Part shown: piece by piece, positions 22,443-63,600 of the stretch
Numbering within the stretch: the stretch's first letter is position 1
Layout: each line of letters opens with the position of its first letter
Assembly (NCBI GenBank): GCA_976551045.1
Contig: CDPCPM010000023.1
Coordinates: 9,734,001-9,798,000, forward strand
DNA length: 64,000 bases
Direction: 5' to 3'
Origin: Glaucostegus cemiculus
Lineage: Eukaryota
Made by a program: the position numbers and the translations under genes
The notes under the pieces: generated by a model
What the model was told of the DNA's origin: nothing
The model's database searches: none
What the model saw: the letters and a program-made list of their open reading frames with translations, nothing else

Positions 22443-22506
22443 AATTTTATTCAATTAGTTTAAATAAATTTTATTCAATTAGTTTAAATAAATCAGTTTA
22501 AATAAT
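22443..22506. repeat. AT-rich 25-bp tandem duplication
   Basis: AATTTTATTCAATTAGTTTAAATAA x2 plus a partial copy. Confidence 0.8.
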
Positions 22507-26480: not shown

Positions 26481-27314
26481 GCACTCATCGTACTCTTGAC
26501 ATGTGCACTGTAGATGAAAGGAGGGCTTTCAGGTATCAGGAGAAAATATACAAAGAGACACATAAAATGCTACAAATTCCAGGTCAGAGCTGCAGGAAAT
26601 GCCCAGTTCAGGCAACGTCAATGGAGAGAATGACAATATTACAGATGAATGACATCTAGTAAAGTTCAGAAGGATCTAGGAGTTTCAGTGGCATGTTGTG
26701 ATGAGGACATTGTGATCTGCAACAGGATTGAGTGACTGGGCAAAAACCTGACGAATGGAGTTTAATGAGGTCTGAGGTCATGCACTTTGGTAAGAGGAAT
26801 CAAAAAGCAGATTACTGAGTTTATTAAAAGGCAGTGAGTGAGACTGCAAATGAGTGAAGTTCAGAAGACAGGTGTTCTAGTACATAAATCACAAAAAGTT
26901 AGCTTAAAGGTCTAACAAGAAGTTAAGAAGGCAAATGGCATGTTGGCCTTTTTAGCAAAGGGGTTGGAGTTTAAGAACAGGGAGGTTTTGTCACAGTTGC
27001 ACAGGGTGTTGGTGAGGCTGCACCTGGAATACTGCACGGTTTTGGTCCCCTTACCCAAAAAGAATATGGTAGCATGGAGGCAGTCTAAAGGAGATTGACC
27101 AGGCTAATTCCTGTGATGAGATGTCAGATAACTTGGGTTTGTATTCTTTGAAGTTTAGAAGATTGTGGAGTGACCATATTCAAAGGTCTAAGGCCCTAAG
27201 GGGGCTTAACAGGGTAGATATTGAGATGTGTTCATTAGGAGGAGAGTCATGATCAAGAGGACGTAGCTACAAAATAATGGGCCAGTCAATTAAAGCTGAG
27301 GCACATAGAAATTT

Positions 27315-27490
27315 GAGCGAAATGCTGGAGGAACACAGCAGGTCAGGTAGCATCTATGGAGGGAAATAAACGGTCGATGTTTCGGATCGAGACCTTTCCT
27401 CAGGACTGATGCTACCTGACCTGCTGAGTTCCTCTTGCATTTTGTGTATGTTGCTCCAGATTCCAGCATCTGCAGAACCTTTTGTGTCTC
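27315..27490. mobile_element. Short fold-back Penelope-derived insertion with a 14-bp TSD, inside a CR1 fragment
   Basis: Inverted arms 27320-27354 and 27408-27442; TSD GCACATAGAAATTT (27301-27314) and GTGCATAGAAATTT (27491-27504). Confidence 0.75.
27371..27408 (-). ncRNA. Minimal type-I hammerhead-ribozyme-like motif (decayed)
   Basis: CAGUC-CUGAGGA-AAGGUCUCGAUCC-GAAAC-AUC-GACCG: CUGANGA and GAAA core, short stem II, stem I CAGUC/GACCG with one mismatch, AUC in place of GUC. Confidence 0.6.
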
Positions 27491-28069
27491 GTGCATAGAA
27501 ATTTCTCCTGTCAGGGGGCTGGGAATCTCTGGAATTTTCCATCCCAGAAAGTGGTAGAGGCCAGATCATTATATATATTTTTTAAGTTGGAGATAGATAA
27601 ATATTTGAAAGATCGAGGAATCGAGGGTTATGAGGAGCTGGCACAAAAGAGGATTTGAGGCCAAAGATCAGCCATGATCATATTGAAAGATGGGGCAGGT
27701 TAGAAGGGCCTCGCGGCCTATCCTCCGACTTTTTTGTGTACAGTAGGACTGGCCAGTTGTGTTACAAACAGAAAAAGTGAGTTACCTGAAATTGTTGAAT
27801 TCAACATTGAGTCCTGAAGGCTGCAATGTTCTCAAGCAGAAGAAGAGGCATGGTTCCTCAAGCTGCACTGAAACAGTGCAGACAGATAGGTCAGAGTGGG
27901 AATGGAATACAGAATTAAAGTGGCAGCTGAATAGTCTTCAGTTTGAAACATTAGTTCTGTTTCTCTTTACACAGATGTTACCTGACTTGCTGGATGTTTT
28001 GAGGATTTTCTCTTTTTTTTAGATTCTCATATCTGCAGGTTTTATTGATTTTCCTGAATACTACACTTA

Positions 28070-30858
28070 TGGCTTTTGTCCAGCTCTGCAATCTTCAGCA
28101 GGATTCACTCCATTCCATCCTCGCCCACTTACTTCCAAATAATTTCCCTAGAAATTTCCTCTCACAGCTCCAAAACTTTGCATTGTGTTACTGAAAACCT
28201 GGTTAGCCACAATTTTCTGCACATTCCTGGGTGTCTTAACACCTGTTGGGAGGTTTGACTCCTCACTGATTGGGAGGTTTCTGCTCTCCCCGTCACCTTT
28301 ATTTCTCGTGTAAATCTTAACAACATCAGCAATGGTGCAATACACAACCCCACCAGTCTGAAAAACACAACAGTTCCTATTTACTCAAGGAAGAGTCAAT
28401 CTCAGCATTAGTTTCCCCACATCTCTAGAATTAAGCGCCTAGAAATTTATCTCTGCATTGCCCAAATATATACCATTATGCAGATGTAGTGTTGATGTAT
28501 TTTGTGGGCATTTCTAAATGAGTCCTACTGAGGCATCAGTCTCTTGATGTGAATATTTCATGTACCCTAGTATTGTTTCTCGGATGTCTGACTCACTTAA
28601 GTGATGTCAGCAATTATGAAATGCCCAAAATTTGTTTTGTTCATGCTTTACTGCAGGAGCAGAGGGACGTCAGGGACTGTTGGGTACACTGCTTCACAGA
28701 GACATGGCTCACTCCCAGCACTCCGGACACAGTGCACCAGCCTGAGGGCTTCACCATCTACTGCAATGGACTGGTCAGCGGCATCCGGTAAAGGCAGGGG
28801 CGGCGGCGTTTGCTTCATGATTAACCATCACGGTGCGCAGACGCGGCAGTTCTGTCACAGTCCTGCTCCCCTGACCTGGAACATCTGGCAGTCAAGTCTC
28901 ATCCATTCTACCTGCCAAGGGAGTTCTCCACTGTCATCCTGGTAGCGGTGTACATTCCACCCCTGGTAAATGTCAAGCTGGCACTGGAGGAGCCGAGCAC
29001 TGTGATCAACAGTCACGAGACAGTGCACCCTGATGCCTTCCCGATCATCACGGGGGGACTTCAACCAGGCCAGTCTCTGATGAGCTACCACCAACATGTC
29101 ACCTGCAGAACCAGAGGAGCCAACACGCTTGATCACTGCTACCTCACCATTAACAACGCTTACCGTGCCATCCCACATCCACACCTTGGCAAATCTGATC
29201 ACCTGGCTGTACTTCTGCTCCCGACATATGGGTAGAGACTGAAGACTGCAGCACCAGTGGTGAGGACTGCAAGGTATGGTCAAGCGAGACGGAGGAGTGT
29301 TTACAGGACTGCTTTGAATCAGTGGACTGGACCATATTCAGGGATTCATCTTCGGATCTGAATGAATATGCCGTGGCCGTCACTGACAGGAGTGAGACAA
29401 ATCGGCTGGTTCAGTGGTGTCGCTAAAACAATCCTGCAGTCAACGTCAGCAAGACCAAGGAAGTGATTGTGGGCTTCAGGAAGGGGAAGTCGAGAGAACA
29501 CACACTAGTGTTCATTGGGCGGTCAGTGGTGGAAGGGGTGAGCAGCTTAAAATTCCCAGGTGTCAACATCTCAGAGGATCTATCCTGGGCCCAACACATT
29601 GACGCAATCATGAAGAAGGCACATCAGTGGCTCTACTTCATTAGGAGTTTGAGGAGATTTGGTATGTCACCAAAGACTCTTGCAAATTTCTACAGATGTA
29701 CGGTGGAGAGCATCCTGACTGGTTGCATCACTGCCTGGTATGGAGGCTCCAATGTGCAGAATCACAAGAGGCTGCAGAGGGTTGTAGACTCAGCCAGCTC
29801 CATCGCGGGCACAACCCTCCCCACCGTTGAGGACATCTTCAAGAGACGGTGCCTCAGGAAGGTGGCATCCATCATTAAGGACCCTCACCATCCGGGACAG
29901 ATCTTTGAAACCAGCACTTAAAGGGACATGCCACTAATATAACCAACACTCTTTCAGCTATGTGGGAGTGTCGCCAATGATGGGAGGGAGCAGAAGATTG
30001 TTCCTGGGGGAATCAGATGACAGGCCAGGGAAGAACAGTACTTGTGAGAAGCATGTTCTTTTGGTAGGGAGTGGGATGGGATGTATGGAGACCCTGCAAG
30101 TACTCTTGGCAGGAAATCGTAGAAAAGTCTCTGTAGGAGCATTATAAGAGTGTCTGCACTATGGAGAAGCCTGCAAATTCTCACACCTGCTTTGCCTGCT
30201 CATGTGGAAAAGCAGATGAAGGCTCCTCTGTTTGAGTGTGAAGTTTAAATAATGGCTCTAAGGTAGCAGAGAGCAACAGATTGTGAGGAGTAGCAGAGAT
30301 CAGAAGCAGCAGCCTGGAATGATCCTGAGGGTGGGAAGCTGAGACTGACTGTGACCCTGGCCACCCCCGCCCCTGCCCCCACCCCCCCCCCCAAGGCAAA
30401 GCAAGATGAGATTGTATTTGAGATTGTCGGAGGTCAGAAATCTCAGTATGGACAAAGAATGCAATTTGAATGTAGGGCTTTTAAATTGCACAGGGTGTGT
30501 ACAGGGCTTAGTAAAATCTGTGAGTAAATAGGAACTGTTTTTTTCATACCAGTGAGACTGGAAATCTCACTACAGAGGACCTCTGTGTATTGCACCACTG
30601 TTAATGTTATTAAGATTTACACTAGAAGTAAAGGTGCTAGGGTGAGCAGAAATCTCCCAACCAACAAAGAGACAAATTTCCCAACAGGTGCTAAGACACC
30701 CAGAAATGTGCAGAAAATTGTAGTAACTGTATTTTCAGCATACAATGTGAATTTCTGGAGCTGTGCGAGCAAATTTCTGAAGAAGTGATTCAGAAGTGCG
30801 TGGGTGGGGATGAGATGGAGTGAATCCTGTGGAAGAATGCAGTAGCTGGATAAATCAT
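28070..30858. mobile_element. Non-autonomous DNA transposon with ~320-340 bp inverted repeats (28070-28388 / 30520-30858), a Myb/SANT-like relic (~29975-30180, +) and a nested Rex1 fragment; Harbinger-related
   Basis: The arms translate to the same pseudo-peptide on opposite strands (KIYTR.KG..SRNLP...PTG.KTPRNVQKIV). Inner ends AACAGTTCCTATTTACTCA and TGAGTAAATAGGAACTGTT are exact reverse complements. Internal frameshifted EKHVL..WQEIVEK. Confidence 0.7.
28650..29900 (+). mobile_element. Rex1/Babar-type LINE fragment with an internal deletion of most of the RT
   Basis: Endonuclease motifs CFTETWL, GGGVCFMIN, VYIPP, TRGANTLDHCY, GKSDH are joined at ~29387 directly to the post-RT region SKTKEVIV..LYFIRSLRRFG..FYRCTVESILT..KDPHHPG. 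Confidence 0.85.
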
Positions 30859-31072: not shown

Positions 31073-31690
31073 AGAACATAGAATATAGAAAAACTACAGC
31101 ACAATTCAGGCCCTTCGGCCCACAAAGCTGTGCCGAACACATCCCTACACTAGAAGTTACTGGGCATTCCCATAGCCCTCTATTTTACTTATCTCCATGT
31201 ACCTATCTAACAGTCTCTTGAAAGACCCTATTGTATCTGCCTCCACCACTGCTTCTGGCAGCCCATTCCACGCACTCACCACTCTCTGAGTAAAAAACTT
31301 ACCCCTGACATCTCCTCTATATCTACTCCCCCAGCACCTTAAACCTATGTCCTCTTGTGGCTACCATTTCAGCCCTGGGGAAGAGCCTCTGACTATCTAC
31401 ACGATCAATACCTCTCATCATCTTATATACCTCTATCAGGTCTCCCCTTATCCTCCTTCTCTCCAAGGACAAAAGGCCGAGTTCCCGCAACCCGCATTCC
31501 ATTCCGCTCCGCATTCCAGGCAGCATCCTCGTAAACCTCCTCTGCACCCTCTCTATGGCTTCCACATCTTTCCTGTAGTGAGGTGACCAGAACTGAACAC
31601 AATACTCCAAGTGGGGTCTGACCAGGGACCTACATAACTGAAGCAATACCTCCCGGCTCCTAAATTCAATCCTGCGACTGATGAAGGACA
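31073..31690 (-). mobile_element. CR1 3' fragment inserted into the Gypsy RNase H region
   Basis: ORF LVRPHLEYCVQFWSPHYRKD...RGDLIEVYK; 3' hairpin GGGCCGAAGGGCC and TTCTATG-type tail at ~31073-31090. Confidence 0.9.
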
Positions 31691-32759
31691 ATACTGTTCT
31701 CCTTTATTGAAAGTGTGGGATGCAAATTATACAGTTTTGTCCAGAACATGTCTAATAACAGCGGGCAGTCCATGGTTTAAGGCTAAACGTGCAAGCTTCA
31801 ATGTCCTTGTCATGCCATGGTGTGACAGTAAGGATCCTCTCCTTAAGCTTTGTTTGTGTAAGTTTTGTGCTGTCTGCCGATTCTCATTCCATCTCTGTTA
31901 TTCATTTTTTTTCAATCCGTTACTGCAGTAGCTTGGATACCATTGCTGAATCAGGTAACAATCTTGAGTAATAGCAAACCATACCAAAAAGGACTGAGCT
32001 CTGATTTGTCTTTTGGTCTCTTCCCCTTTTCCAAAGGTTTCAGCTTTGTCCTTGACAGATTGTAAAGCATTGATGTCTGCTTTTTACCTGACATGGGCAA
32101 CTTCTAGTTGGACTGAAGAACACTTAGGTTATATAAATTTCACACTACAGTGGTAGAATTGTTTGAGGTGTCTTCTAAAGTGCCCAGATTGTTTTCCTTG
32201 GCAGCAATGTTAATGGGATCACTTTGGTTACACAGGCTCTGGTTTATGCCTTGTAGGATCCTGTCCATTGTCAACTGGAAAACTTTCTGTGGCAGCTTAA
32301 TTCCAAAAGGCAATTTTGTATAAAAGTACAGACCTATTTGCTTATTTATGGTAGATTAATACTGATTTTCTTTGCATGTTGGAGCTCAGAGAGTCTAACT
32401 TTATGAAGAACTTGGTTCCCACCAGTTCTATGCTAAGGTCTCATGACATTGGAACTGGGAACTGCTTGTCATCGACCAGCCAGCCACGGGTAACTTTACA
32501 TAATCTGACTGTCTTGTCAGCCTCAGATACTAGCATGATCAGGGCTGCCCATTTTCTCTTACTTGCCTTCACTAGGACCCCTCACTTGCCTGATTCTTCA
32601 TCTGACTGAACTTTTTGTGAATACAACACTGATTACAGTTAACAAGATATTGGTATGCTTTTGGGCTCGATGTGTACGCCTGTCTTGCTGACAGTATTGC
32701 CAGTAGAAGCACCCTCCAAAAATTTCTTCATGTTTGTCTAATTATGTTTCAAAATGTTA

Positions 32760-33164
32760 AGGGATATCACGAACCGGTTCCAGAATATCCTGAGGGGAGA
32801 GGGGGAACAGCCAGAGGTCTTGGTACATGTTGGCACCAATGACATAGGCAGGAAAGGAGAAGGGGTCCTGAAGGAAGAATACAGAGAGTTAGGAAGAAAG
32901 TTGAGGAGAAGGACCCCTAAGGTGGTAATCTCAGGATTGCTGCCTGTGCCACGCGCAAGCAGTAGCAGGAACAGAAAGATTTGGCAAATAAACGCGTGGC
33001 TTAGTGACTGGTGCAGGGGGCAGGGCTTCAGATTCCTGGACCATTGGGACCTTTTTTGGGGGAGGGACGACCTATACTGCAAGGATGGGTTACACCTCAA
33101 CTCAAAAGGGTCCAGAGTCCTGGCGGGATTATTTAACATAGCTGTTGGGGAAGGTTTAAACTAA
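32760..33164 (+). CDS. CR1 ORF1, C-terminal SGNH/GDSL esterase-like domain (5'-truncated)
   Basis: Motifs VLVHVGTNDIGR and DGLHLN; ends GEGLN*; no internal stops. Confidence 0.85.
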   Translation, partial: RDITNRFQNILRGEGEQPEVLVHVGTNDIGRKGEGVLKEEYRELGRKLRRRTPKVVISGLLPVPRASSSRNRKIWQINAWLSDWCRGQGFRFLDHWDLFWGRDDLYCKDGLHLNSKGSRVLAGLFNIAVGEGLN

Positions 33165-33247
33165 TCAAGCAGGGGGATGGGACCCAGAATATTAGGGTAA
33201 AAGTAGATAGAGGAAGGCAAGAGTTAAATAAAAACAGGTCAAAGTTA

Positions 33248-36200
33248 GTGCGTGATCAGGATGGCAAGACGGACAGGCAGGTGATTAATCAAGGTAACAT
33301 GCTGAATGACAATAGTACAGTAAATGAGGATGTTAGGTCACAGAATGTTAGACGAGAGGTGGAGGCAGATAAAAAGAAGTCCATGACAGTGAGCAGTCAG
33401 GATCGAAAGAAGGGCGAGGAAATGGAAATTAAGGATAAGTTGCTCAAGAAAGGAAGCGCAGCAAAATCAACAGTGGTTAATGAGCTAAAGGTATTATACT
33501 TAAATGCACGTAGCATCAGGAACAAGGCAGATGAACTAGCAGCACAGCTGCAGATTAATAAATATGACATTGTGGCAATTACTGAGTCGTGGCTGCATGA
33601 TGGATGTGACTGGGAGCTCAATGTCCAGGGGTACACAGTGTATAGGAAGGATAGGCGGGAAGGTAGAGGGGGTGGTGTGGCCATGATGGTTAGTAATGAG
33701 ATAAAATCAATAGAAAGGAAGGATATTAGGTCAGATGAAGTGGAAACTTTATGGGTGGAGCTAAGGAATAGCAAGAGTAAGAGGACAGTTGTAGCTGTTG
33801 TATATAGGCCCCCTAATAGCAATCAGGAGGTAGACCATAAGTTGCGGTTAGAGATAGAAAAGGCATGTCAGAGTGACAATATCAAAATAATTATGGGTGA
33901 CTTTAACATGAAGGTGGACTGGGAAACCCAGCAAGGCAGCAGTTCTCAGGAGAGCGAGTTTGTTGAATGTTTACGGGATGGCTTTTTGGAACAACTTGTT
34001 GATGAGCCCACCAGGGGATCGGCTGTTTTGGATTGGGTGTTGTGTAATGAACCGGAGGTGATTAGAGAACTAAGGGTAAAGGAACCATTAGGAACTAGTG
34101 ACCATAATATGATTGAGTTCAGAATGAAATTTGAAAAGGAGAAGCTGATGACTGGAGTGTCGACATTTCAGTGGAACAAGGGGAATTACAGAAGGATGAG
34201 AGAAGAGTTGGCCCAGATTGATTGGGAATATAAGCTCGCTGGAGGGACGGCCGAACATAAATGGGTGGAATTTAAGCAAGTAATAAAGAAAATGCAGGAC
34301 AGACACATTCCAAGAAAAAAGAAGGTTTTAAATGGAAAAAGGGCACAAATGTGGATAACGAGAGAGGTGAAAGCTAAAATAAGAGCAAAAGGGAGGGCAT
34401 ATAAGGTAGCGAGAAAAAGCAGAAAAAAGGAAGACTGGGAAACTTTTAAGAACCTACAGAAAGAAACTAAGAAGGTCATTAGAAAAGAAAAGAGAAATTA
34501 CGAAATGAAATTGGCAGAAAATATTCAAAAGGATACTAAGAGTTTTTTTAAATATATAAGAAGCAAAAGAGAGACGCGGGTTGATATAGGACCGATAGAA
34601 AATGAGGTGGGAGAGATTATTATGGGTGATAAAGAGATGGCGGAGGTGCTAAATCAGTATTTTGCGTCGGTCTTCACGGTAGAAGATATTAACAATATAC
34701 CGGTTAGTCAAGGGTCTCGAGGGACGGAATTAAAGACAGTTAAGGTTACGAGAGAGAAAGTGTTGGGGAAGCTAAATGGGTTAAAGACTGATAAGTCTCC
34801 GGGACCAGATGAGATACATCCCCGTGTACTGAAGGAAGTAGCTCTAGAAATAGTGGAGGCATTAGTGATAATTTTTCAGGAATCGATAGACGCTGGAGAG
34901 GTGCCGGAGGACTGGAGGGTCGCGAATGTAGTTCCATTGTATAAGAAAGGTGGGAGACAGCACAGAGGAAATTACAGACCTATCAGTCTTACATCTGTGG
35001 TGGGGAAGATACTAGAATCGATCCTCAAGGATGAGGTGATGGGATACATGGAGGTGCAAGGCAAGATAGGTCCTAGTCAACATGGATTCGTGAAGGGAAG
35101 ATCCTGCCTGACCAATTTATTGGAGTTTTTTGAAGAAATCTCAGGCAGGGTGGACAAGGGAGAGGCCGTAGATGTAGTGTATTTAGACTTTCAGAAGGCA
35201 TTCGACAAGGTGCCGCACAAAAGACTAATTAGTAAGATGAGAGATCACGGAATAACGGGCAGGATAACAGAATGGGTGGAGAGTTGGCTGGATGGCAGAA
35301 AACAGAGGGTGGGAATAAAAGGATCATGTTCTGGTTGGCTGCCGGTTACTAGTGGTGTTCCGCAGGGGTCGGTGTTGGGGCCCCTTCTTTTTACCTTATA
35401 TATTAATGATTTAGACGAAGGAGTCAATGGGTTTGTGGCCAAGTTTGCAGATGACACTAAGATTGGGGGAGGAGTGGAGAGTATTGAGGAGACAGGAAAG
35501 TTACAGAGAGACTTGGATATTCTAGGAGAATGGGCGAAGAAATGGCAGATGAGGTTCAACGTGGAAAAATGTGCAGTTGTACACTTCGGAAGTAGAAATG
35601 GAAGGGCAGACTATTATCTAGAAGGAGATAAAATTGGAAGCACAGAAGTACAAAGGGACTTAGGGGTGCTCGTACAGGATAACCTAAAGGTTAACCGCCA
35701 GGTTGGATCGGCAGTAAGGAAAGCGAATGCTATGTTGGCATTTATTTCGAGGGGTATAGTATATAAAAGCAAGGAAGTGTTGATGAGGCTATATGGGGCA
35801 CTGGTGAGGCCTCACTTGGAGTACTGTGTGCAGTTTTGGGCCCCATACCTTAGGAAGGATGTGCTGATGTTGGAGAGGGTTCAGAGGAGATTTACTAGGA
35901 TGATTCCTGGGATGAAAAAGTTTACATATGACGAGCGACTGTCGTCACTTGGACTGTACTCGTTGGAGTACAGAAGAATGAGAGGGGACCTAATAGAAAC
36001 GTACAAGATGTTGAAAGGAATGGATCAAGTGAATGTGGTCAAGCTGTTTCCCTTGGTGGGGGAATCCAGGACTAGAGGACACAACCTTAGAATTAGAGGA
36101 AGCAGGTTCACAACAGAGATAAGGAGGAATTTCTTTAGCCAGAGGGTGGTGAACCTGTGGAACTCCTTACCACAGAGAGCAGTGGAAGCCAGATCATTGG

Positions 36201-36283
36201 GGATATTCAAGAAGGAAATAGATAGATATCTAATTGGTCAAGGTATCAGGGGATATGGAGATAAGGCAGGGATTTGGACTTAG
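33248..36283 (+). CDS. CR1 ORF2: AP-endonuclease plus reverse transcriptase, ~1011 aa uninterrupted (frame open from 33137; first ATG at 33299)
   Basis: Endonuclease motifs YLNARS, ITESWL, GDFN, SDH; RT motifs YRPISLTS, YLDFQKAFD, PQGSVLGP, FADD; CR1 C-terminus RPHLEYCVQFW. Confidence 0.95.
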   Translation: MRDQDGKTDRQVINQGNMLNDNSTVNEDVRSQNVRREVEADKKKSMTVSSQDRKKGEEMEIKDKLLKKGSAAKSTVVNELKVLYLNARSIRNKADELAAQLQINKYDIVAITESWLHDGCDWELNVQGYTVYRKDRREGRGGGVAMMVSNEIKSIERKDIRSDEVETLWVELRNSKSKRTVVAVVYRPPNSNQEVDHKLRLEIEKACQSDNIKIIMGDFNMKVDWETQQGSSSQESEFVECLRDGFLEQLVDEPTRGSAVLDWVLCNEPEVIRELRVKEPLGTSDHNMIEFRMKFEKEKLMTGVSTFQWNKGNYRRMREELAQIDWEYKLAGGTAEHKWVEFKQVIKKMQDRHIPRKKKVLNGKRAQMWITREVKAKIRAKGRAYKVARKSRKKEDWETFKNLQKETKKVIRKEKRNYEMKLAENIQKDTKSFFKYIRSKRETRVDIGPIENEVGEIIMGDKEMAEVLNQYFASVFTVEDINNIPVSQGSRGTELKTVKVTREKVLGKLNGLKTDKSPGPDEIHPRVLKEVALEIVEALVIIFQESIDAGEVPEDWRVANVVPLYKKGGRQHRGNYRPISLTSVVGKILESILKDEVMGYMEVQGKIGPSQHGFVKGRSCLTNLLEFFEEISGRVDKGEAVDVVYLDFQKAFDKVPHKRLISKMRDHGITGRITEWVESWLDGRKQRVGIKGSCSGWLPVTSGVPQGSVLGPLLFTLYINDLDEGVNGFVAKFADDTKIGGGVESIEETGKLQRDLDILGEWAKKWQMRFNVEKCAVVHFGSRNGRADYYLEGDKIGSTEVQRDLGVLVQDNLKVNRQVGSAVRKANAMLAFISRGIVYKSKEVLMRLYGALVRPHLEYCVQFWAPYLRKDVLMLERVQRRFTRMIPGMKKFTYDERLSSLGLYSLEYRRMRGDLIETYKMLKGMDQVNVVKLFPLVGESRTRGHNLRIRGSRFTTEIRRNFFSQRVVNLWNSLPQRAVEARSLGIFKKEIDRYLIGQGIRGYGDKAGIWT

Positions 36284-36563
36284 AATAGTAGGTTTTTTTT
36301 TTTGTTTTTTTTTTTTTTTTTTTCTCCCCCCCCCCCCCCCCCACCTTCCCTTCCCTTTGGAGCAGACTCGATGGGCCGACTGGCCTGCTTCTGCTCCATT
36401 ATCTTGTGATCTTGTGATCTTGTGATCTTCATGGACGCAAAATACATTTTCCAATGAAATTTCAGTTTCCTTAGCCAATTTTTGTGCGGTACAGTCAGTC
36501 GCTATGCGTAGTCAATTGCAATTATTGGCAGTTCTAATTGTTGGCCACTGTAGGTTTTTAATG

Positions 36564-38284: not shown

Positions 38285-39720
38285 CATACGAGCATACATA
38301 TTAAGAGCAGGAGCAGGGCACTTGACCCCTTGAGACTGTGCCACCATTTAATAAGGTCATGGTTAATTTGATTGTAACCCCAACTCCACATTCACATTGA
38401 TACCCAGTAACTTTTCGCCCTGCGCTTATTAAGAATTTGTCTACCTCTGCCTTAAAGATCTCCAAAGATGCTGCCTCAATTACTCATTTAGATTCAGTAC
38501 CCTCTGAGAGCAGAAGTTTTTCTTCATCTCTGTCTCAAATGGGCCGCCTCACAACTTTAAACAGTGATCCCAAGTTCTAAATTTTCTCACAAGAGGACCC
38601 CTCCTCTCCACACCCATCTTGTTAATTGTCAGGATTTAATATCCAATCATGGTCCTTTCTCACTCTTCTAAACTCCACTGGTCACAAACCCAGTCTGTCT
38701 AACCTTTCCTCATAACACAACCCATCCACTGCAAGAACTAATTCAAAAACGTTCTCTGAATTTCCTTCAAAGCATTTACATTCTTTCTTAGATAAGGAAA
38801 CCAGGGCTGAAGGATAACTTTGATAGAGGTATACAAAATATTAAGAGGAATAGATAGAGTAGACAGCCAGCACCTCTTTCCCAGGGCACCAATGCTCAGT
38901 ACAAGAGGGTGTGGCTTTAAAGTAATGGGTGGGAAGTTCAAGGGAGATGTCAGAGGGAGGTTTTTCACCCAGAGGGTGGTTGGTACATGGAGTGTGCTGT
39001 CTGGGGTTGCGGTGGAGGCAGATACGTTGGCCAAGTTCAAGAGATTGTTAGGTAACCACAGGGAGGAATTTAAAATAGGGGGATATGTAGGAGGAAGGGG
39101 TTAGATAGTCTTAGGCGTGGTTTAAAGGTCAGCACAACATTGTGGGCTGAAGGCCTGTATTGTGCTGTATAGTTCTATGGTTCTATAACCTCCCTACTTT
39201 TGCCTTTAATTCTCCAATCAATAAACAATAACGTTCTGTTAACCCTCCTATTTGCTTTCTCTTCATGCATGCCAGCTTTTTGTGAATAATGCACGAGGGC
39301 ACCCAGATCCTTCTCCATCTCCAGGATCTGCAGCCTCTCACCATTTAGATTATACACATCCTTTTATTTTTCTTGCTAAGATTAACAATTTTGCATTTTC
39401 CCACATTATACTCCTTGCCAGATCTTTGCCCATTCGCTTAATCTCTCTGTGTCCCCTTGTAGCTTCCTGACTTTGTCTTCACAGCTTACTCTGCTGTCTA
39501 CCTTTGTGACATCAGCCAATTCAGCAACCATACCTTTGCTGTCTTCATCCATTTAAATAGATCGCAAAAAGGTGTTCCCCCATCTCCTGTGACATGCCAC
39601 TCATTACGTCTTGCCTACAAGAAAGAGACACACTTATTCATACTCTAGGTTTCTTGTTAGCCACGCAAACCCCATATCCATTCCTAAATATTGCATTGTA
39701 AAACATGAGCTTTTATTTTC
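38285..39720 (-). mobile_element. Old CR1 fragment (-) interrupted by a younger CR1 3' fragment (+, ~38805-39187)
   Basis: Outer piece YNLNGERLQILEMEKDLGALV; inner piece IEVYKILRGIDRVDSQHLFP..FFTQRVV with a TTCTATGG tail. Confidence 0.8.
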
Positions 39721-51600: not shown

Positions 51601-53029
51601 AGTTTAGCCTGTTACCTATAATTGTTTCCATCACCATCATTGAGAAGTACAGCGAGTCAATAAGGCCAGGTTGTGGATTTTAAGTGCAGACAGTAGAATG
51701 ACCCAAAGGGGGTGTATCTGCAGTAAAGCCATTATTTTGCTCTCTGATCATTTTGTCCTTTCATTTTTGATTGAGCTTCAGGGACGAGAATAGGAAATTT
51801 ATTACTCCTGTGAAATTTATTCCATCTAAGTCTCTTCGACATGTCTTATTGCTGGTATTCTTTGAGAGGACAGTTCCTTAGCAACTCTTGTCTTCATACC
51901 AGACAGCTCCTGAACTCCTACTGCAGTTACATAAACTGTTTTTACAGATCAGATTCTCAATGATTCCATGTGCCCTGAAAGTGTTGTAGCTCACTTTTGA
52001 TGCTCTGACATCACCCAAAGGTGATGGCATTGATCCCAGTTCACACTCGCCCCAGTCCACACTGAATCAAGTCTACACTGATTCCACTCCACACTGATCC
52101 CACTCTACCTGGTGTCACACAGCCTTGATCTAATGTATGTCCTATGTTGTAGTATTTTCCTCTTCTTTGCTTCTGATTCAAACCTTTACTCCTTTGTTAC
52201 TGGAGTCATTGCCTGCTTGCTGGATCACACTTTGGCCATCTGGACCTGTACCCTTTCACAAAGCTTAAGCCTGGTTGGGAGGTTGCGCAAGGAGTTTGGA
52301 AAGGAGCACAGACTTCTCCTGCCACAACGTCCACAAATCTCCTTGTACATTGGAGAGTGATGAAAAGTGGACCAAAAAAAGTGGCCAGTTTATGAAGTAT
52401 TCCTTGGGGCAGCTGAAGTTGAGGTCAATCAGCCAAGGTCTTGGCACTGGTGCCCTTTTAGAAGTTTGAACAACTCACTTTGCTTTCTGTGCACCCCTGG
52501 GACAGCATCCCTTTGTAATTGTGAATGAAGTCCAGTGTCTCTGCATCAGCCCCATCCCAAAAGACGTACACTTCATGATCAAATTTTGGTAGAATAATTA
52601 GAATGACCTGTAAAGAAAATAGGAAAAGTCTAATAATCCCACTGCTCCTTTGCCAAGGAACGTTCTCCTGGGAACAGGCTTCCAATAAACTGCAGAAAGG
52701 ACATACAATGTGCTGACCAGTTTAATTCATCAGTAACAGGAAATATGAGAAGAAATGTGTATTTTAAAACAAAACCAATTTGAATTCTCTTTCACCTCAG
52801 TGTTTTAAATTGGGGCATTCATGTTATCTGATGGGGCAGTACCTGCTCAAAGCTCCAAGAAGCAGTACTACAGAGCAGCTCCTCTTCACATTGTGAGTGA
52901 GTTTCAGCACAGCCCAGCCCTCCACTCACATAGGTTTGCCAATTGAGGAGATCTCACTCATGCTTCCAAACACCCCACAAGCCTCACATTTTTTTCTACA
53001 GGGCAGAGTAGAACCAGCTCAGTAACAAG

Positions 53030-54395
53030 CAATTTTTTATTTGCTCATGAGTAATGAGGAATGATTAATAAGAGATCTTGTGGTTAAAGATTCCCTAGGA
53101 GGCAGTGACCACAATATTATGGAATTCCAGATGCAGTTTGAGGGTGAACACTGCAGGACCAAAACCACTGTCTTCAACTGAAATAAGGGCAATTATAATG
53201 GTATGAAGGTGGGGTCGTCAAAGGTGGATGAGGAAACTAAACTAACAAACAAGTCAGTAGATGAACAATAGCAGATATTCAACAGCTGGTCTCCAATGTG
53301 CAGCAGGAATTTGTCCCAATTAGAAAGAGGGATTCCATGAGAAGGAGTCACAGTTTGTGGTTAACAAAGGATGACAAGGATAATGTTGAATTGAAATAAA
53401 GGGTATACAAGGTGACAAGGGCTAGTAGAAGGCTAGAGGATTGAAAAGTTTTTGGATCCAGCAGAAAATTATTAAAAAGCCTGTAAGAGGGAAGAAAATT
53501 GATTTTTAGAGAAAACTTACAATGTAATATAAAAACAAACAGTAAGAATTTCTGTGGATATATAAACAGGAAGAAGAAAGCTAAAATAGGTAGGAACCTC
53601 TAGAGAACAAGGCTGGTGAATTAGTAACAGGAAACAAAGAAATGGCAGATATATTCAATCAATTTTTTGCATTGGTCTTCAGCACAGAGGACACTACAAA
53701 TAGCCTTAAGATAACAGGTAAAAACCTCAGTCACAAAGGATAAAGAGAAACTCATGAGGCTAAACGCAGACAAACTGCCAGGGTCTGATGGCTTGTACCC
53801 AGGGGTTTCAAAGGAAGTGGCTAAAGAGATAGTGGACCCATTGATAGAAAACCTTCAGAGCTTGCTAAATTCAGGGAGGGTACCAGAAGATGAGAAAACA
53901 GCTAAGTAACTCCCTTGTTTTAAAAGATAGAAGGCAGGGAACCGTAGGCTTGTTAGTTCAACATCGATTGTTGGCAAGATGCTAGAATCAATAATCAAAG
54001 AAGAAATTTAGGAAAGATGAAGATAATCAAACCTAGTCAATGTGGTTTTAGGAAAGGTAAATCATATTTGACAAAAATGCCCAAATTCTTTGAAGATGTG
54101 GCAGGGAGAGTTGATAGAGGGGAACCTGAAGATGTAGTGTATTTAGATTTCCAAAAGGGATTTGGCAAGGTGCCACATAAGAGGCTGGTGCATAAGTTAA
54201 GAGCCCAAGATATTGGATGAAGTGTGTTATAATGGTTTGAAAACTAGATGTCACATAGAAAACAGACAGTTGGAATAGATGGGCCGTTTTCAAGCTGGAG
54301 GGATGTAACTGACAGAGTACCCCAAGGATTGGCTCTCGACTCTCAGTTGTTTAATATTTATATTAACGACTCGGAGGAAGGAATGAAATGTAAGG
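53030..54395 (+). mobile_element. Old CR1 ORF2 fragment (endonuclease end to RT) with many stops
   Basis: PLGGSDH; SQCGFRKGKSYLT..VDRGEPEDVVYLDFQKGFGKVPHKRL. Confidence 0.85.
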
Positions 54396-59724: not shown

Positions 59725-60612
59725 CATGAAAATAGGAGCAGGAGTGGGCTACTCTGCCTCTCAAGCCCTGCCATTCAATATGATCATGGTTGATCTATGT
59801 TGGTCTCAACTCCTCTTCTGTGCCAGTTCCCCAAAGCCCTCAATTCCTTGATCTTTCAAATACTTATATATCTCCACCTTAAATATATCTATGATCCAGT
59901 CCCCACCACCCTCAGGGCCAGAGAATTCCAGAGGTTCATTACCCTCTGAGAGAAGTTTCTACACACCTCAGTTTTAAGTGATCGATCCCTTATCTTGTGG
60001 TTATGTGCCCCTGTTCATGACTTCCCCACTAGTGATAACGTCTCAACATCTACCCTGTCAAGCCCCCTTCGGATCTTACACGTTTTAATAAGGTGACACT
60101 TCAATGCTTCTAAACTCCCAGGAATACAGACACAGACTATCCAGCCTTTCATCTCAGGAATTAGCCTGGTGAATCTCCTTTGGGCTGTATCCAGTGTTAC
60201 TACATCCTTTTTTTTAGGTAAGGGGACCAAAACTGTGCAGTATTCCAGGTGTGGCCTCGCCAACACCCTGTGCAACTGTAACAGTATCTTCCTGTTCTTA
60301 AACTCCAACCCCTTGGCAATAAAGGCCAACATCCCATTTGCCTTCTTAACTACTTGTTGGACCTGCCTGCTAATTTTTTGCGATTCATGCACCAGAACAC
60401 CTAGATCCTCTGAACTTGTCTCATTTGCAGTCTCCAGTTAGATAATAAACTGCCTTTTGATTCCTCTTACAAAGCACATGACCTCACACTTTCCTACATT
60501 AAACTTCATTTGCTAGGTATTCACTCAGTCACTCAGTCTTTCTCTACCCTATTGCAGAATCACAATGTCCTCATCACAACATGCCCTTCCACCTATTTTC
60601 GTATCATTGGCA
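59725..60612 (-). mobile_element. CR1 3' fragment
   Basis: ORF VKKANGMLAFIAKGLEFK..ARPHLEYC. Confidence 0.85.
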
Positions 60613-63600
60613 GCCTCTGAGATAGAGATCACAGGGTCGCCGGATGCTGTGCGGATTCGCAGAGATACAGTGTTATTCTCCCTTTCAAAGCATGTTAAAA
60701 GGCATTAGAGCTCTTTCACATGATAAAGCTGCAGAGTTCTGGAATTCCTCATTGCTTTTGTCCCATTCCCTGAATCTCAGCATCCCTCACATTGTAGGGC
60801 CCATACCTTCAATCTAGTTGCAGATTTGGATTCCTCAGGCTGTGCCTTACTTTACAAATCCATTTGCAAAGATGAGGTATCTTGAATGAATTCCCTTAAG
60901 AGGTAACAAGGAAGGTAGGTAAAGGAGGTGGGTTTGGTGCAGTTTAACTGGATTTTAACAAGGCTTTTGACAAGTTGTTACATGGTAAGCCGGTCAAAAG
61001 AAATAAAAACCTGTCAGATCCAAGGGAAAGTGGCAAATTGGATCCAAAGTTGGCTCAGCGGTGGGAAGCAAAGGTTAATTATTGATATGTGCTTTAGTGA
61101 CTGGAAGGCTGTTTCTCTGTGGATTAATGATGAAAGTAAGGGACTTGACAAAGAAGTTTGTAGATGATGGTAAAATTGGTTGCATGAGGAAAGCTTTAGA
61201 CTGCAGGAAGATATTAATGGTCTGGTCAATTGGGCAGACAAATGGCAAATGGAATTTAATCTAGAGAAGTGAGAGATATAGCTTTTAAGCAGGTTCAACA
61301 AAACAAAGAAATGTGCAGTAAATGGTCACTGCCTTGCATACTTGTGGCATGCATGTTAAGTTGGCTGCTGGCATGTTAGAGCCCATTCTGTGGCACTGCA
61401 CAAAGGCAAAACTGTATCAGTGTCGGCCCTGCTCACAAGATGAGTGGCTGCTGTGTTAAAATTGTCTCCTAATGGGCCACCTGCTGTCACCTCGCCCCTC
61501 CTGCATGGAGCAGAAATTGTCTCTTGCAAATGGGAAGAAGTGCAGGGGGTCCCCATTACGTTCTGGCCAACATTTGTCCAACTCACTCCTACTGTTGTGG
61601 AATCTTCCTGTGCCCAAATTGACTACAATTCAAAAGTGCTACAACAAGAAGTTGAAATATTTATCATGCCTTGAAATTTGCTCAGTTGGTGGAACTGAAT
61701 TAAGTCAATGTCTGAATACGGGAGGTAAAGTACAACATATTATACATCATGTTTAGTGCAATTGGCTAGGGATAAATCTCTAGGCTAGTGCCATTAATGT
61801 AGTAAAACCACCCAAGATATTTCACTGGTGGTGTTTTCAAAATCTGGTGCTAAGCCAAAGATGGATTGTGACCATAAAACTGGCAACTGGGCTAAGTTTT
61901 GTCCCAACAGGGAGGGAAATCTTCAGGGGGAGAATGCAAAGGCTTCTGGTTTTGAGGACTGAATGAAGATCTTCATTAGGATGCATGAGCTGAAGAAAGG
62001 TGCTATAACATGTGAGTCTTTTATCGTCCTCGTTATAAACACAAACCAGGGCAATGCACTACCTAGTTGTTTATTTCATTGGAAAATCCTAATCTTGAAA
62101 ACAGAATTAAAAGTGCAGGGATGAACTCATGCTGCAGGACTTTGCTGTGGCTGTCACAGAGCACCCGCACCTGTGCCTCAATATTGACTATTTACATAGC
62201 AGTCTTTCAGGTTTATTAATCCGTGGTGACGGAATTGGTGCTCCAGGTTCCCACGGAAACAGCACAGATGACTTGGAGCCATTAGAGAAATGGTTTGTGT
62301 CACTATTTTGATTTAAAGCAGGGGGACCAAAATAAAACCTGCCTGTCACTGTCTAGAGTGAGTCAGAGTCCTGCGTGGAATGACGCCAGCAGAAGACTCA
62401 TGAAGCACTAAATGGAAAGGTCATCTCCTGTGATTAGTAATAAAGGCTCAGATCTGGACAACTGGGATAAGCAAGGAACTGAACTCACCAAGGAATTAAT
62501 GAAACTGAACAAGTAATCTCTTCCATTCTTTCCTGTCCAGCGATCCTCAGTTGAATGAGCCGTGGGTGTTGGTGTCAAAATAATATGCACTTAAACCTTC
62601 ACTCCTTCCAAACATCCTAATCAGTCAGTCTAATGAACATGACTTATAAAAAGACATCAGGAAATTGCAGCACTGCAGTGGAGTCAGAGTACAGAGCTGT
62701 GAGCACACAAATGCCCAAACAGTGTTTGAAGGCCTGAAGAGTATCTTGCTCATAGTGAACTGTTGATGTTCCATTTTTTTTCCAATTTATCTTTAAATGT
62801 TCAGGCAACATAATGGCTCAGAAGTTCAGCCACACAGCAGCCACTTCTCAGGCATGAAACAGGCCCTGGTTGGCTGCGGCAGAAAACACATATCTGTTAT
62901 GAGCTGGCATTGCACTGCCCCTTGTAAAAGGAGATGATTATAGGCCCTGGAAGTTGTAACCCACTGGGGCTCCAATTCAAACATCCATCCTTCTCATGTT
63001 TTGTTCATGAGAATGACATTAACATGCTGTGAGATTGCACACATTGCAATTGTCTTTTTATAACAGGCCCCTGTAGCCCACCCACAGATATTAACCAGTA
63101 TAGCTGAGCGATGGAAGTCCAGAACCTTAGACTGAAACAGCTCTTATACCCTCACACTTGCAGATTAAGAACCAAATGCCTCCTTTGGTTGTCCTTAGCA
63201 AGACTTTAAAAAAACTTACTCCAAATACAAAGGTGCTCAAAGAACTCAAATCGTTTGCATGTCCAGCTAATCACCATCACAGCCAAGCATATCACCCTCA
63301 GTCCCAGCTGCCCCTATTTACCCAACCCAGACGTCTCCCTTCACCATTTAATCTCAGGACCGGTGTGACCAGCAGAAAAATTCACTTCAGTCATGCCTTT
63401 CCTCACCAGCTTAACGTAAGTGAACTCTGAGGCACAGTGCCTGGTGAGATTTGGGCATTGCTGTTCAGCCACAGAAACTGACATTGAATGCCCTTGAAAG
63501 AGAGTATTGAATTTTCAAAGCCAATGATTTTATCATGACTTGGGCTTGGGTTGTAATCTAATCAATGGGCCCACATGCTGGTGTAGGCAAATATCTTCCA

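What the first reader, a model, noticed from the sequence alone, without database searches (positions are those of the whole stretch)
33137..33301. Candidate programmed -1 ribosomal frameshift fusing CR1 ORF1 to ORF2 (U_UUA_AAC directly before the ORF1 stop)
Seen: ORF1 ends GGT TTA AAC TAA (33153-33164), which places TTTAAAC (33155-33161) exactly in the X_XXY_YYZ phase. ORF2 is in the -1 frame. That frame opens after TAA 33134-33136 and runs without a stop through the heptamer (LIKQGDGTQNIRVKVDRGRQELNKNRSKLV...) into the 1011-aa endonuclease-RT ORF. The first in-frame ATG is only at 33299. A G-rich tract (AGGGGGATGGGACCC) starts ~10 nt downstream, about where a stimulator would be expected. 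Established: U_UUA_AAC is the coronavirus ORF1a/1b slippery site, whereas the well-studied LINEs (L1, SART1) make ORF2 by termination-reinitiation. Inference: this CR1 lineage may express a gag-pol-like esterase-ORF1/ORF2 fusion. I recall similar TTTAAAC-stop junctions in other vertebrate CR1s but know of no functional test; novelty needs a literature check.
Basis: partly seen in the sequence, partly recalled or inferred. Interest (0 to 1): 0.75.

Follow-up and report, generated by a model that had tools for sequence, protein, structure and literature searches.

The report
Slippery frameshift site in CR1 LINEs
This shark/ray-type CR1 jumping gene ends its first gene on a seven-letter slippery sequence that distant animal relatives keep or swap only for other slippery sequences, so its copying enzyme is likely made when ribosomes slip back one base, which would explain how one of the commonest vertebrate transposon families translates its second gene.

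Summary
Observation confirmed. A 5'-truncated CR1 copy ends its esterase ORF1 with GGT TTA AAC TAA; ORF2 lies in the -1 frame and is stop-free for 114 codons from the heptamer to the endonuclease. One copy proves little (P about 0.04-0.07), but motif-blind searches are strong: 14 of 15 CR1-type lineages with a readable junction have an in-phase heptamer within two codons of the ORF1 stop and ORF2 in -1, although synonymous sites between them are saturated. The heptamer switches class (U_UUA_AAC, G_GGA_AAC, G_UUA_AAC, U_UUU_UUA), and three lineages have no AUG before the endonuclease. Programmed -1 frameshifting is the best reading (0.85); no product or reporter was tested. The stimulator is open: the conserved G run at +10 forms no local stem and has no conserved distant partner; only the U_UUU_UUA lineage has a stem-loop. 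Some families also carry UAAUG-like starts. Ten literature searches found no CR1 frameshift report; a review states -1 frameshifting for Dictyostelium TRE5-A/TRE3-A; key 1997-2003 CR1 papers were not readable. This scan noted the same signal before on other DNA.

The parts
32725..32732 (+). candidate 5' target-site duplication TCTTCATG (second copy 36426-36433, overlapping the tail)
   Evidence: 8 bp, 4 occurrences in the window, so suggestive only
32758..33164 (+). 5'-truncated ORF1, C-terminal part of SGNH esterase, ending G-L-N-stop
   Evidence: PF13472 E 1.8e-15; profile hits ZfL2-1 esterase 4C1B E 5e-38; sister copies continue 5' of 32758
33155..33161 (+). slippery heptamer U_UUA_AAC in ORF1 phase
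   Evidence: conserved or class-switched in relatives
33162..33164 (+). ORF1 stop TAA, directly after the heptamer (CTA, Leu, in the -1 frame)
33172..33176 (+). G run 10 nt after the heptamer; candidate non-canonical stimulator or protein site; no local stem
33155..33481 (+). stop-free, low-complexity -1-frame linker from heptamer to endonuclease
   Evidence: 0 stops in -1 frame against 11 and 16 in the other frames over 114 codons
33299..33301 (+). first in-frame ATG of ORF2, 134 nt after the ORF1 stop; two out-of-frame ATGs (33177, 33261) precede it
33137..36283 (+). ORF2, intact, APE endonuclease + reverse transcriptase
36284..36400 (+). 3' UTR: T/C run and terminal hairpin (36358-36398)
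36401..36429 (+). 8-bp microsatellite tail (ATCTTGTG)x3.6

Best explanation
CR1 ORF1 ends on a conserved in-phase slippery heptamer with ORF2 open in the -1 frame, so a fraction of ribosomes likely slips back one base at U_UUA_AAC, bypasses the ORF1 stop and would make an esterase-ORF1-linker-endonuclease-RT fusion, while most would release ORF1p alone. Shown: heptamer, phase, -1 register, stop-free linker, conservation and class switching across lineages, AUG-less linkers in some lineages. Inferred: slippage, the fusion product, a Gag/Gag-Pol-like ratio, and a stimulatory role for the adjacent stop and the +10 G run. This 5'-truncated copy is probably silent; the signal belongs to its source element.
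For: (1) DNA, found with queries that did not select for the heptamer: 14 of 15 CR1-type lineages with a readable esterase end and endonuclease (window, L003 family, L010 family, L014/L154 family, L049, L053, L056, L058, L059, L061, L062, L064, L127, L128) have a heptamer within two codons of the ORF1 stop and ORF2 in -1; L054 is the exception. (2) Four heptamer classes: U_UUA_AAC, G_GGA_AAC (L049, L051), G_UUA_AAC (L053), U_UUU_UUA (L127, L128); Atkins 2016 lists U_UUA_AAC, G_GGA_AAC and A_AAA_AAC among the most shift-prone and U_UUU_UUA as the HIV site. (3) Third-position identity at four-fold sites between the window and nine other elements is 0.21-0.35, i.e. saturated; background heptamer rate 0.45% per codon; TTA is only 3-10% of Leu codons in the four bird-type ORF2s measured. 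(4) Proteins: of 126 esterase ORF1s with a complete tail (183 pooled), 79 end x-L-N, 11 x-G-N, 2 x-K-N; x is a residue that cannot end in T in 1 of 79 L-N tails, and x is Gln in 9 of 11 G-N tails but 0 of 79 L-N tails, the switch X_XXY predicts. (5) Linker stop-free in the 12 representatives that reach the endonuclease; no Met before its N-A-R-S motif in L003 (42 codons), L010 (37), L128 (94; 9 and 18 stops in the other frames). (6) L127/L128 have an 8-bp stem 11 nt downstream with 2 compensatory pairs, z -2.3 and -2.0. (7) One invertebrate host family: 19 of 20 copies keep the heptamer, 1/140 mismatches against 74/1203 upstream. (8) The junction is visible in published CR1 consensuses of crocodilians, bowfin, bullfrog, coelacanth and five chondrichthyans (motif-conditioned, breadth only).
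Against: No experiment, ribosome profile or peptide. No folded stimulator in the window or in the other U_UUA_AAC lineages (z between -1.6 and +1.3); no conserved long-range partner. The window linker has three in-frame ATGs. Four of eight bird-type loci have an ATG two bases after the stop (L056, L058, L059, L064) and three published shark consensuses read TTTAAAC-TAATG, which fits SART1-type reinitiation. L054 has a CR1-type ORF2 in the +1 frame without a heptamer; CR1-like elements with other ORF1 types lack it (L139, L146/L147) or have a stop right after it (L153). 34 of 126 protein tails end otherwise, and position -7 is also poor in E/K/Q/M/W (3 of 79). Representatives were chosen with intact linkers: 7 of 20 copies in the L003 family, L009 and L061 have broken linkers. 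Lineages share ancestry; the tree base is unresolved.
Confidence: 0.85

Rival explanations
1. Termination-reinitiation: ribosomes stop at the ORF1 stop and restart ORF2 at a nearby AUG (UAAUG, UAGNNAUG) or AUG-independently; the conserved motif and G run promote restart, giving a separate ORF2p.
For: Established for SART1 and L1 (reviews). TAATG in ScyCan_CR1-1a, SquAca_CR1-17a and -6c; ATG at linker codon 4 in four bird-type loci; the window reads TAATC, one base from TAATG. AUG-independent restart by L1 is recalled, not read here.
Against: Needs no heptamer upstream of the stop, yet heptamers are kept and switch class in phase. No Met before the endonuclease in L003, L010, L128 and in 13 of 13 open copies of the L003 family. 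In the window two out-of-frame ATGs precede 33299, one in strong context. First-Met position among shark-type ORF2s varies from 26 to 91 codons before the motif. May operate as a second route in some families.
Confidence: 0.09
2. The motif is a DNA- or pre-mRNA-level signal (internal promoter, splice acceptor, factor site) giving an ORF2-only transcript.
For: GTTTAAAC is a palindrome; YAG|G occurs at +9/+10 in several lineages; two Squalus consensuses carry GGTTTAAACTAR in the 5' UTR as well.
Against: Does not explain phase, constant -1 register, swaps to G_GGA_AAC and U_UUU_UUA, or the 94-codon Met-free open linker. No polypyrimidine tract in the window or bird-type junctions.
Confidence: 0.03
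3. Only the protein ends are constrained (Leu-Asn at the esterase C-terminus); codons and register are inherited by chance.
For: Asn is the last residue in most tails; lineages are related.
Against: Synonymous sites are saturated; the ZfL2-1 esterase aligns only to profile position 305 of 311, and L2-like esterases end differently; Leu swaps with Gly and Lys exactly as heptamer classes predict.
Confidence: 0.03

Closest known systems
Dictyostelium TRE5-A / TRE3-A (APE-type non-LTR retrotransposons)
   Same: A review figure legend says both require a -1 frameshift for ORF2 translation (PMC5911963, passages); same ORF1/APE-RT layout.
   Different: Different clade and ORF1; the passage names no heptamer or test (primary refs not seen). 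Here the site is a canonical heptamer plus stop, conserved across animals.
Viral and LTR-element -1 PRF (coronavirus IBV U_UUA_AAC, HIV-1 U_UUU_UUA, PEG10)
   Same: X_XXY_YYZ in phase, -1 polymerase ORF, structural-protein/polymerase fusion logic (PMC5009743, passages).
   Different: No pseudoknot or stem predicted in the U_UUA_AAC lineages; a G run at +10 instead; host is a LINE without protease.
Zebrafish ZfL2-1 (L2 clade, esterase ORF1)
   Same: Same esterase ORF1 (4C1B). I recall that Kajikawa 2012 (PMID 22405944; only its title seen) proposed ORF1 stop suppression for ORF2; L2-like loci here have ORF2 in frame behind one UGA (L052, L055, L076-78, L098).
   Different: Read-through in frame 0 rather than a -1 shift; recalled, not verified.
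SART1 UAAUG and L1 reinitiation
   Same: Bicistronic LINE, ORF2 dependent on ORF1 translation.
   Different: Separate ORF2p; no heptamer required; the window has no UAAUG.

Membership tests
CR1 clade LINE | esterase-type ORF1 | tested here: met
   PMC13343379 states esterase is the only ORF1 type in vertebrate CR1
CR1 clade LINE | ORF2 with APE endonuclease and RT | tested here: met
CR1 clade LINE | 3' hairpin plus short microsatellite tail, no poly(A) | tested here: met
CR1 clade LINE | RT phylogeny with named reference CR1s | not tested
   no reference set held; junction matches CR1-labelled consensuses by eye; endonuclease tree of own loci only
canonical -1 PRF signal | X_XXY_YYZ heptamer in the 0-frame phase | tested here: met
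canonical -1 PRF signal | downstream ORF open in -1 from the heptamer | tested here: met
canonical -1 PRF signal | nucleotide conservation beyond protein need | tested here: met
canonical -1 PRF signal | folded 3' stimulator (stem-loop or pseudoknot) a few nt downstream | tested here: not met
   window z -0.19 to +1.19; present only in L127/L128; pseudoknots not modelled explicitly
canonical -1 PRF signal | transframe product or reporter frameshifting | not testable with these tools
   needs bench work
SART1-type stop-start reinitiation | AUG overlapping or adjacent to the ORF1 stop | tested here: not met
   window reads TAATC; first in-frame ATG 134 nt away; met in some relatives
long-distance (3' UTR-paired) frameshift element | cognate pairing of the junction with the 3' end | tested here: not met
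   cognate no better than non-cognate or shuffled UTRs in six elements (best case L010: 3.8% of ORF2 25-mers, 15% of shuffles as good)
G-quadruplex-stimulated frameshift | predicted G4 at the +10 position | tested here: inconclusive
   G4 predicted in 2 of 15 junctions (L060, L064), not in the window; G-score in the top 13% of ORF2 windows in 13 of 15

The most novel reading that the evidence does not exclude
CR1 LINEs across animals make an ORF1-ORF2 fusion by -1 frameshifting that, in the vertebrate-type lineages, is driven not by a folded stem but by a single-stranded G run at +10 (protein-bound or quadruplex), i.e. a new natural stimulator class; and esterase-ORF1 LINEs as a group reach the same fusion by interchangeable recoding routes (-1 shift, UGA read-through, possibly +1 at GUU_UAG_C).
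Probability: 0.35. Interest if true: 0.88.

Novelty: new variant of a known kind. Interest (0 to 1): 0.72.

Why it matters
How LINEs translate ORF2 is a long-standing question answered experimentally for few elements (reinitiation in L1 and SART1). CR1 is the dominant retrotransposon in most vertebrates (PMC13343379 abstract). A -1 frameshift would mean ORF2p is made tethered to ORF1p at a set ratio, like Gag-Pol; ORF2 annotations that start at the first Met would be wrong; engineered or assay CR1 elements need the junction intact; and it offers a directly testable, possibly new type of frameshift stimulator.

Tried and rejected
No whole genome is held and the window has no second junction copy, so a genome-wide copy survey was not possible. 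Viral-contig scans gave no LINE loci; genome scans with the single ORF1 fragment and the G-N-type alignment gave only bacterial hits or nothing. No DNA was obtained for the x-K-N (putative A_AAA_AAC) protein class, so it stays inferred. No RNA holder listed. Contigs of two DNA runs of one sample: none of the 40 shown of 105 variant sites falls in 33132-33212 and depth peaks at 33142-33175, but 65 sites were hidden and a 1-nt deletion in the G run occurs in 9 and 8 contigs; not used as proof. Predicted ORF2 starts are confounded by truncation. Bacterial SGNH hits (L001-2, L017-21, many of L065-L125) and seven esterase loci without an ORF2 match were left out of counts. Kapitonov and Jurka 2003 was not held.

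Full report
Observation. The window holds one 5'-truncated CR1-type LINE at about 32758-36429. ORF1 (C-terminal 135 codons of an SGNH esterase) ends GGT TTA AAC TAA at 33153-33164; ORF2 (APE endonuclease plus RT, 1048 codons stop to stop) is in the -1 frame, opens after TAA 33134-33136 and has its first ATG at 33299. A run of five G starts 10 nt after the heptamer. The 3' end has a hairpin and an 8-bp microsatellite tail. Closest named ORF1 relatives are from rays and sharks at 59-71%. On its own the arrangement is weak: 46 stop-free codons before the ATG have P 0.04-0.07.

Relatives at the protein level. ORF1 homologues came (35 hits) and from an HMM search of which only the best 150 of 9987 hits were seen. 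Of 183 pooled proteins 126 had a complete tail after the catalytic D-x-x-H motif; 79 end x-L-N, 11 x-G-N, 2 x-K-N, 34 otherwise, five of these with an internal x-K-N. If the codons are TTA AAC preceded by T, x cannot be E, K, Q, M or W: this fails in 1 of 79, against 26, 21, 16 and 3 of 79 at the next four positions (1 versus 23, 17, 7 of 59 unique tails). In the G-N class x is Gln in 9 of 11 and always a residue that can end in G. L-N tails include a lizard and a swallow protein. Three proteins from frame-damaged copies read F-K-L at this spot, the -1 reading of TTT AAA CT.

Relatives at the DNA level. Animal DNA contaminating microbial assemblies was fetched with esterase or endonuclease patterns that do not include the heptamer (18, 77 and 36 loci, many bacterial, duplicate or truncated). 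Among 15 CR1-type lineages with both a readable esterase end and an endonuclease, 14 have an in-phase heptamer within two codons of the stop and ORF2 in -1: U_UUA_AAC in the window, three invertebrate-type families and six bird-type elements; G_GGA_AAC in L049 (also L051, no ORF2 held); G_UUA_AAC in L053; U_UUU_UUA in L127 and L128. L054 is the exception. ORF2 identity between the window and these is 32-44% and four-fold third positions agree at 0.21-0.35; in-phase heptamers occur at 0.45% of 8905 ORF2 codons. An endonuclease tree (22 rows; L147 and short loci left out) gives six groups carrying a heptamer and an unresolved base, so independence cannot be counted exactly. The -1 linker is stop-free in the 12 representatives that reach the endonuclease (window: 0 stops versus 11 and 16); L003, L010 and L128 have no Met before the N-A-R-S motif, the first Met lying 14-30 codons beyond it. 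These were chosen as intact: in the L003 family 19 of 20 copies keep the heptamer but only 13 of 20 keep an open linker, none with a Met; L009 and L061 are broken. The same junction is visible in published CR1 consensuses from alligator, crocodile, bowfin, bullfrog, coelacanth and five chondrichthyans, a motif-conditioned look at 400-letter cells.

Stimulator. The window's downstream RNA does not fold better than shuffles. The G run sits at +9/+10 in all U_UUA_AAC lineages, +12 in L049 and +7 in L053, always as GGG-type codons although GGG is 16-36% of Gly codons. It has no conserved partner elsewhere in the element and no cognate pairing with the 3' UTR; a quadruplex is predicted in 2 of 15 junctions. 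The U_UUU_UUA pair instead has an 8-bp stem 11 nt downstream with two compensatory changes (two sequences only). Synthetic quadruplexes stimulate -1 shifts (PMC3919603, abstract start in listing); Atkins 2016 knew no natural case. The G run's role is therefore open.

Mechanism. Most likely a minority of ribosomes slip -1 on the heptamer, read the stop as CUA Leu and continue through a low-complexity linker into the endonuclease and RT, giving ORF1p in excess over an ORF1-ORF2 fusion (0.85; all dynamic steps inferred). The main rival is termination-reinitiation: four bird-type loci and three published shark consensuses have an AUG at or next to the stop. It does not explain heptamer class switching or AUG-less linkers, and in the window two out-of-frame ATGs precede 33299; it may be a second route in some families. 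Related L2-like esterase elements put ORF2 in frame behind one UGA, mostly UGA-C (L052, L055, L076-78, L098), which suggests that the fusion, not the route, is what is conserved.

What is known. Ten searches of the held library found no paper on frameshifting in CR1. Seen as passages only: PMC11835228, PMC2881922, PMC13343379 (no 'overlap', 'start codon' or 'translation'; supplement searched with cut cells, no 'frameshift' or 'slippery'), PMC5006619, PMC5009743 (first 300,000 characters; no CR1; HeT-A gag frameshift mentioned), PMC3542737, PMC3905857, PMC5911963 (TRE5-A/TRE3-A said to need a -1 frameshift), PMC10275272, PMC4120745, PMC3708506, PMC3880073, PMC4316615. Not seen: Haas 1997, Kajikawa 1997 and 2012, Kapitonov and Jurka 2003, Repbase; an earlier remark there is quite possible. 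Earlier notes of this scan describe the same signal in other genomes; they are unchecked and not counted as support.

Verdict. Real, conserved and probably a programmed -1 frameshift; a new variant of a known recoding type in a very widespread transposon clade, with an unexplained stimulator and a simple bench test. Interest 0.72.

Noticed in passing
L054:961-975: CR1-type element with esterase ORF1 ending GUU UAG C and a Met-free ORF2 linker in the +1 frame; matches the closterovirus GUU_stop_C +1 motif (PMC3542737 passage). One copy only; could be an indel.
   Followed up: partly
L052:1316, L098:1326, L076:505, L077:1582, L078:2216, L055:1827, L147:1230: ORF2 in frame behind a single UGA, mostly UGA-C (UGA CUA twice): read-through-like junctions in L2-like esterase elements and in an element with another ORF1 type.
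   Followed up: partly
L149:395-410: CCCH-zinc-finger ORF1 is fused in frame to the endonuclease across a T7 run; looks like a U_UUU_UUA site with one extra T.
   Followed up: no
L153:95-130: In-phase A_AAA_AAC near the ORF1 end with ORF2 in -1, but a TAG three codons later closes the -1 frame.
   Followed up: no
proteins P0133, P0156, P0166, P0174, P0181: Esterase ORF1 lineage with conserved x-K-N 8-12 residues before the end: putative A_AAA_AAC class, no DNA found.
   Followed up: partly
L152:300-350: 2A-like peptide (LLLRSGDVDPNHGP) in front of the endonuclease, a known feature of some CR1-like elements.
   Followed up: no
window 36358-36398; L003 and L010 3' UTRs: The terminal hairpin shares the CTCGAT bulge and an inner hairpin between the window and invertebrate-type CR1s.
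   Followed up: partly
window 36293-36343: Long T run followed by a C run in the 3' UTR, not seen in the other full-length relatives.
   Followed up: partly
window 32733-32757: About 25 nt between the candidate TSD and the start of ORF1 homology, possibly extra 5' junction nucleotides.
   Followed up: no
window 22443-22505: AT-rich 24-bp tandem repeat with TTTAAACT(A/G) three times on the minus strand, no ORF context.
   Followed up: partly
L003-L016, L126-L161: Many prokaryote genome records carry animal CR1 DNA; one MAG holds at least 20 copies: host contamination.
   Followed up: yes
window 26756-27643, 28825-29921, 31166-31700, 38444-39552, 53011-54385, 59821-61269: Other decayed LINE fragments without an ORF1/ORF2 junction.
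   Followed up: no
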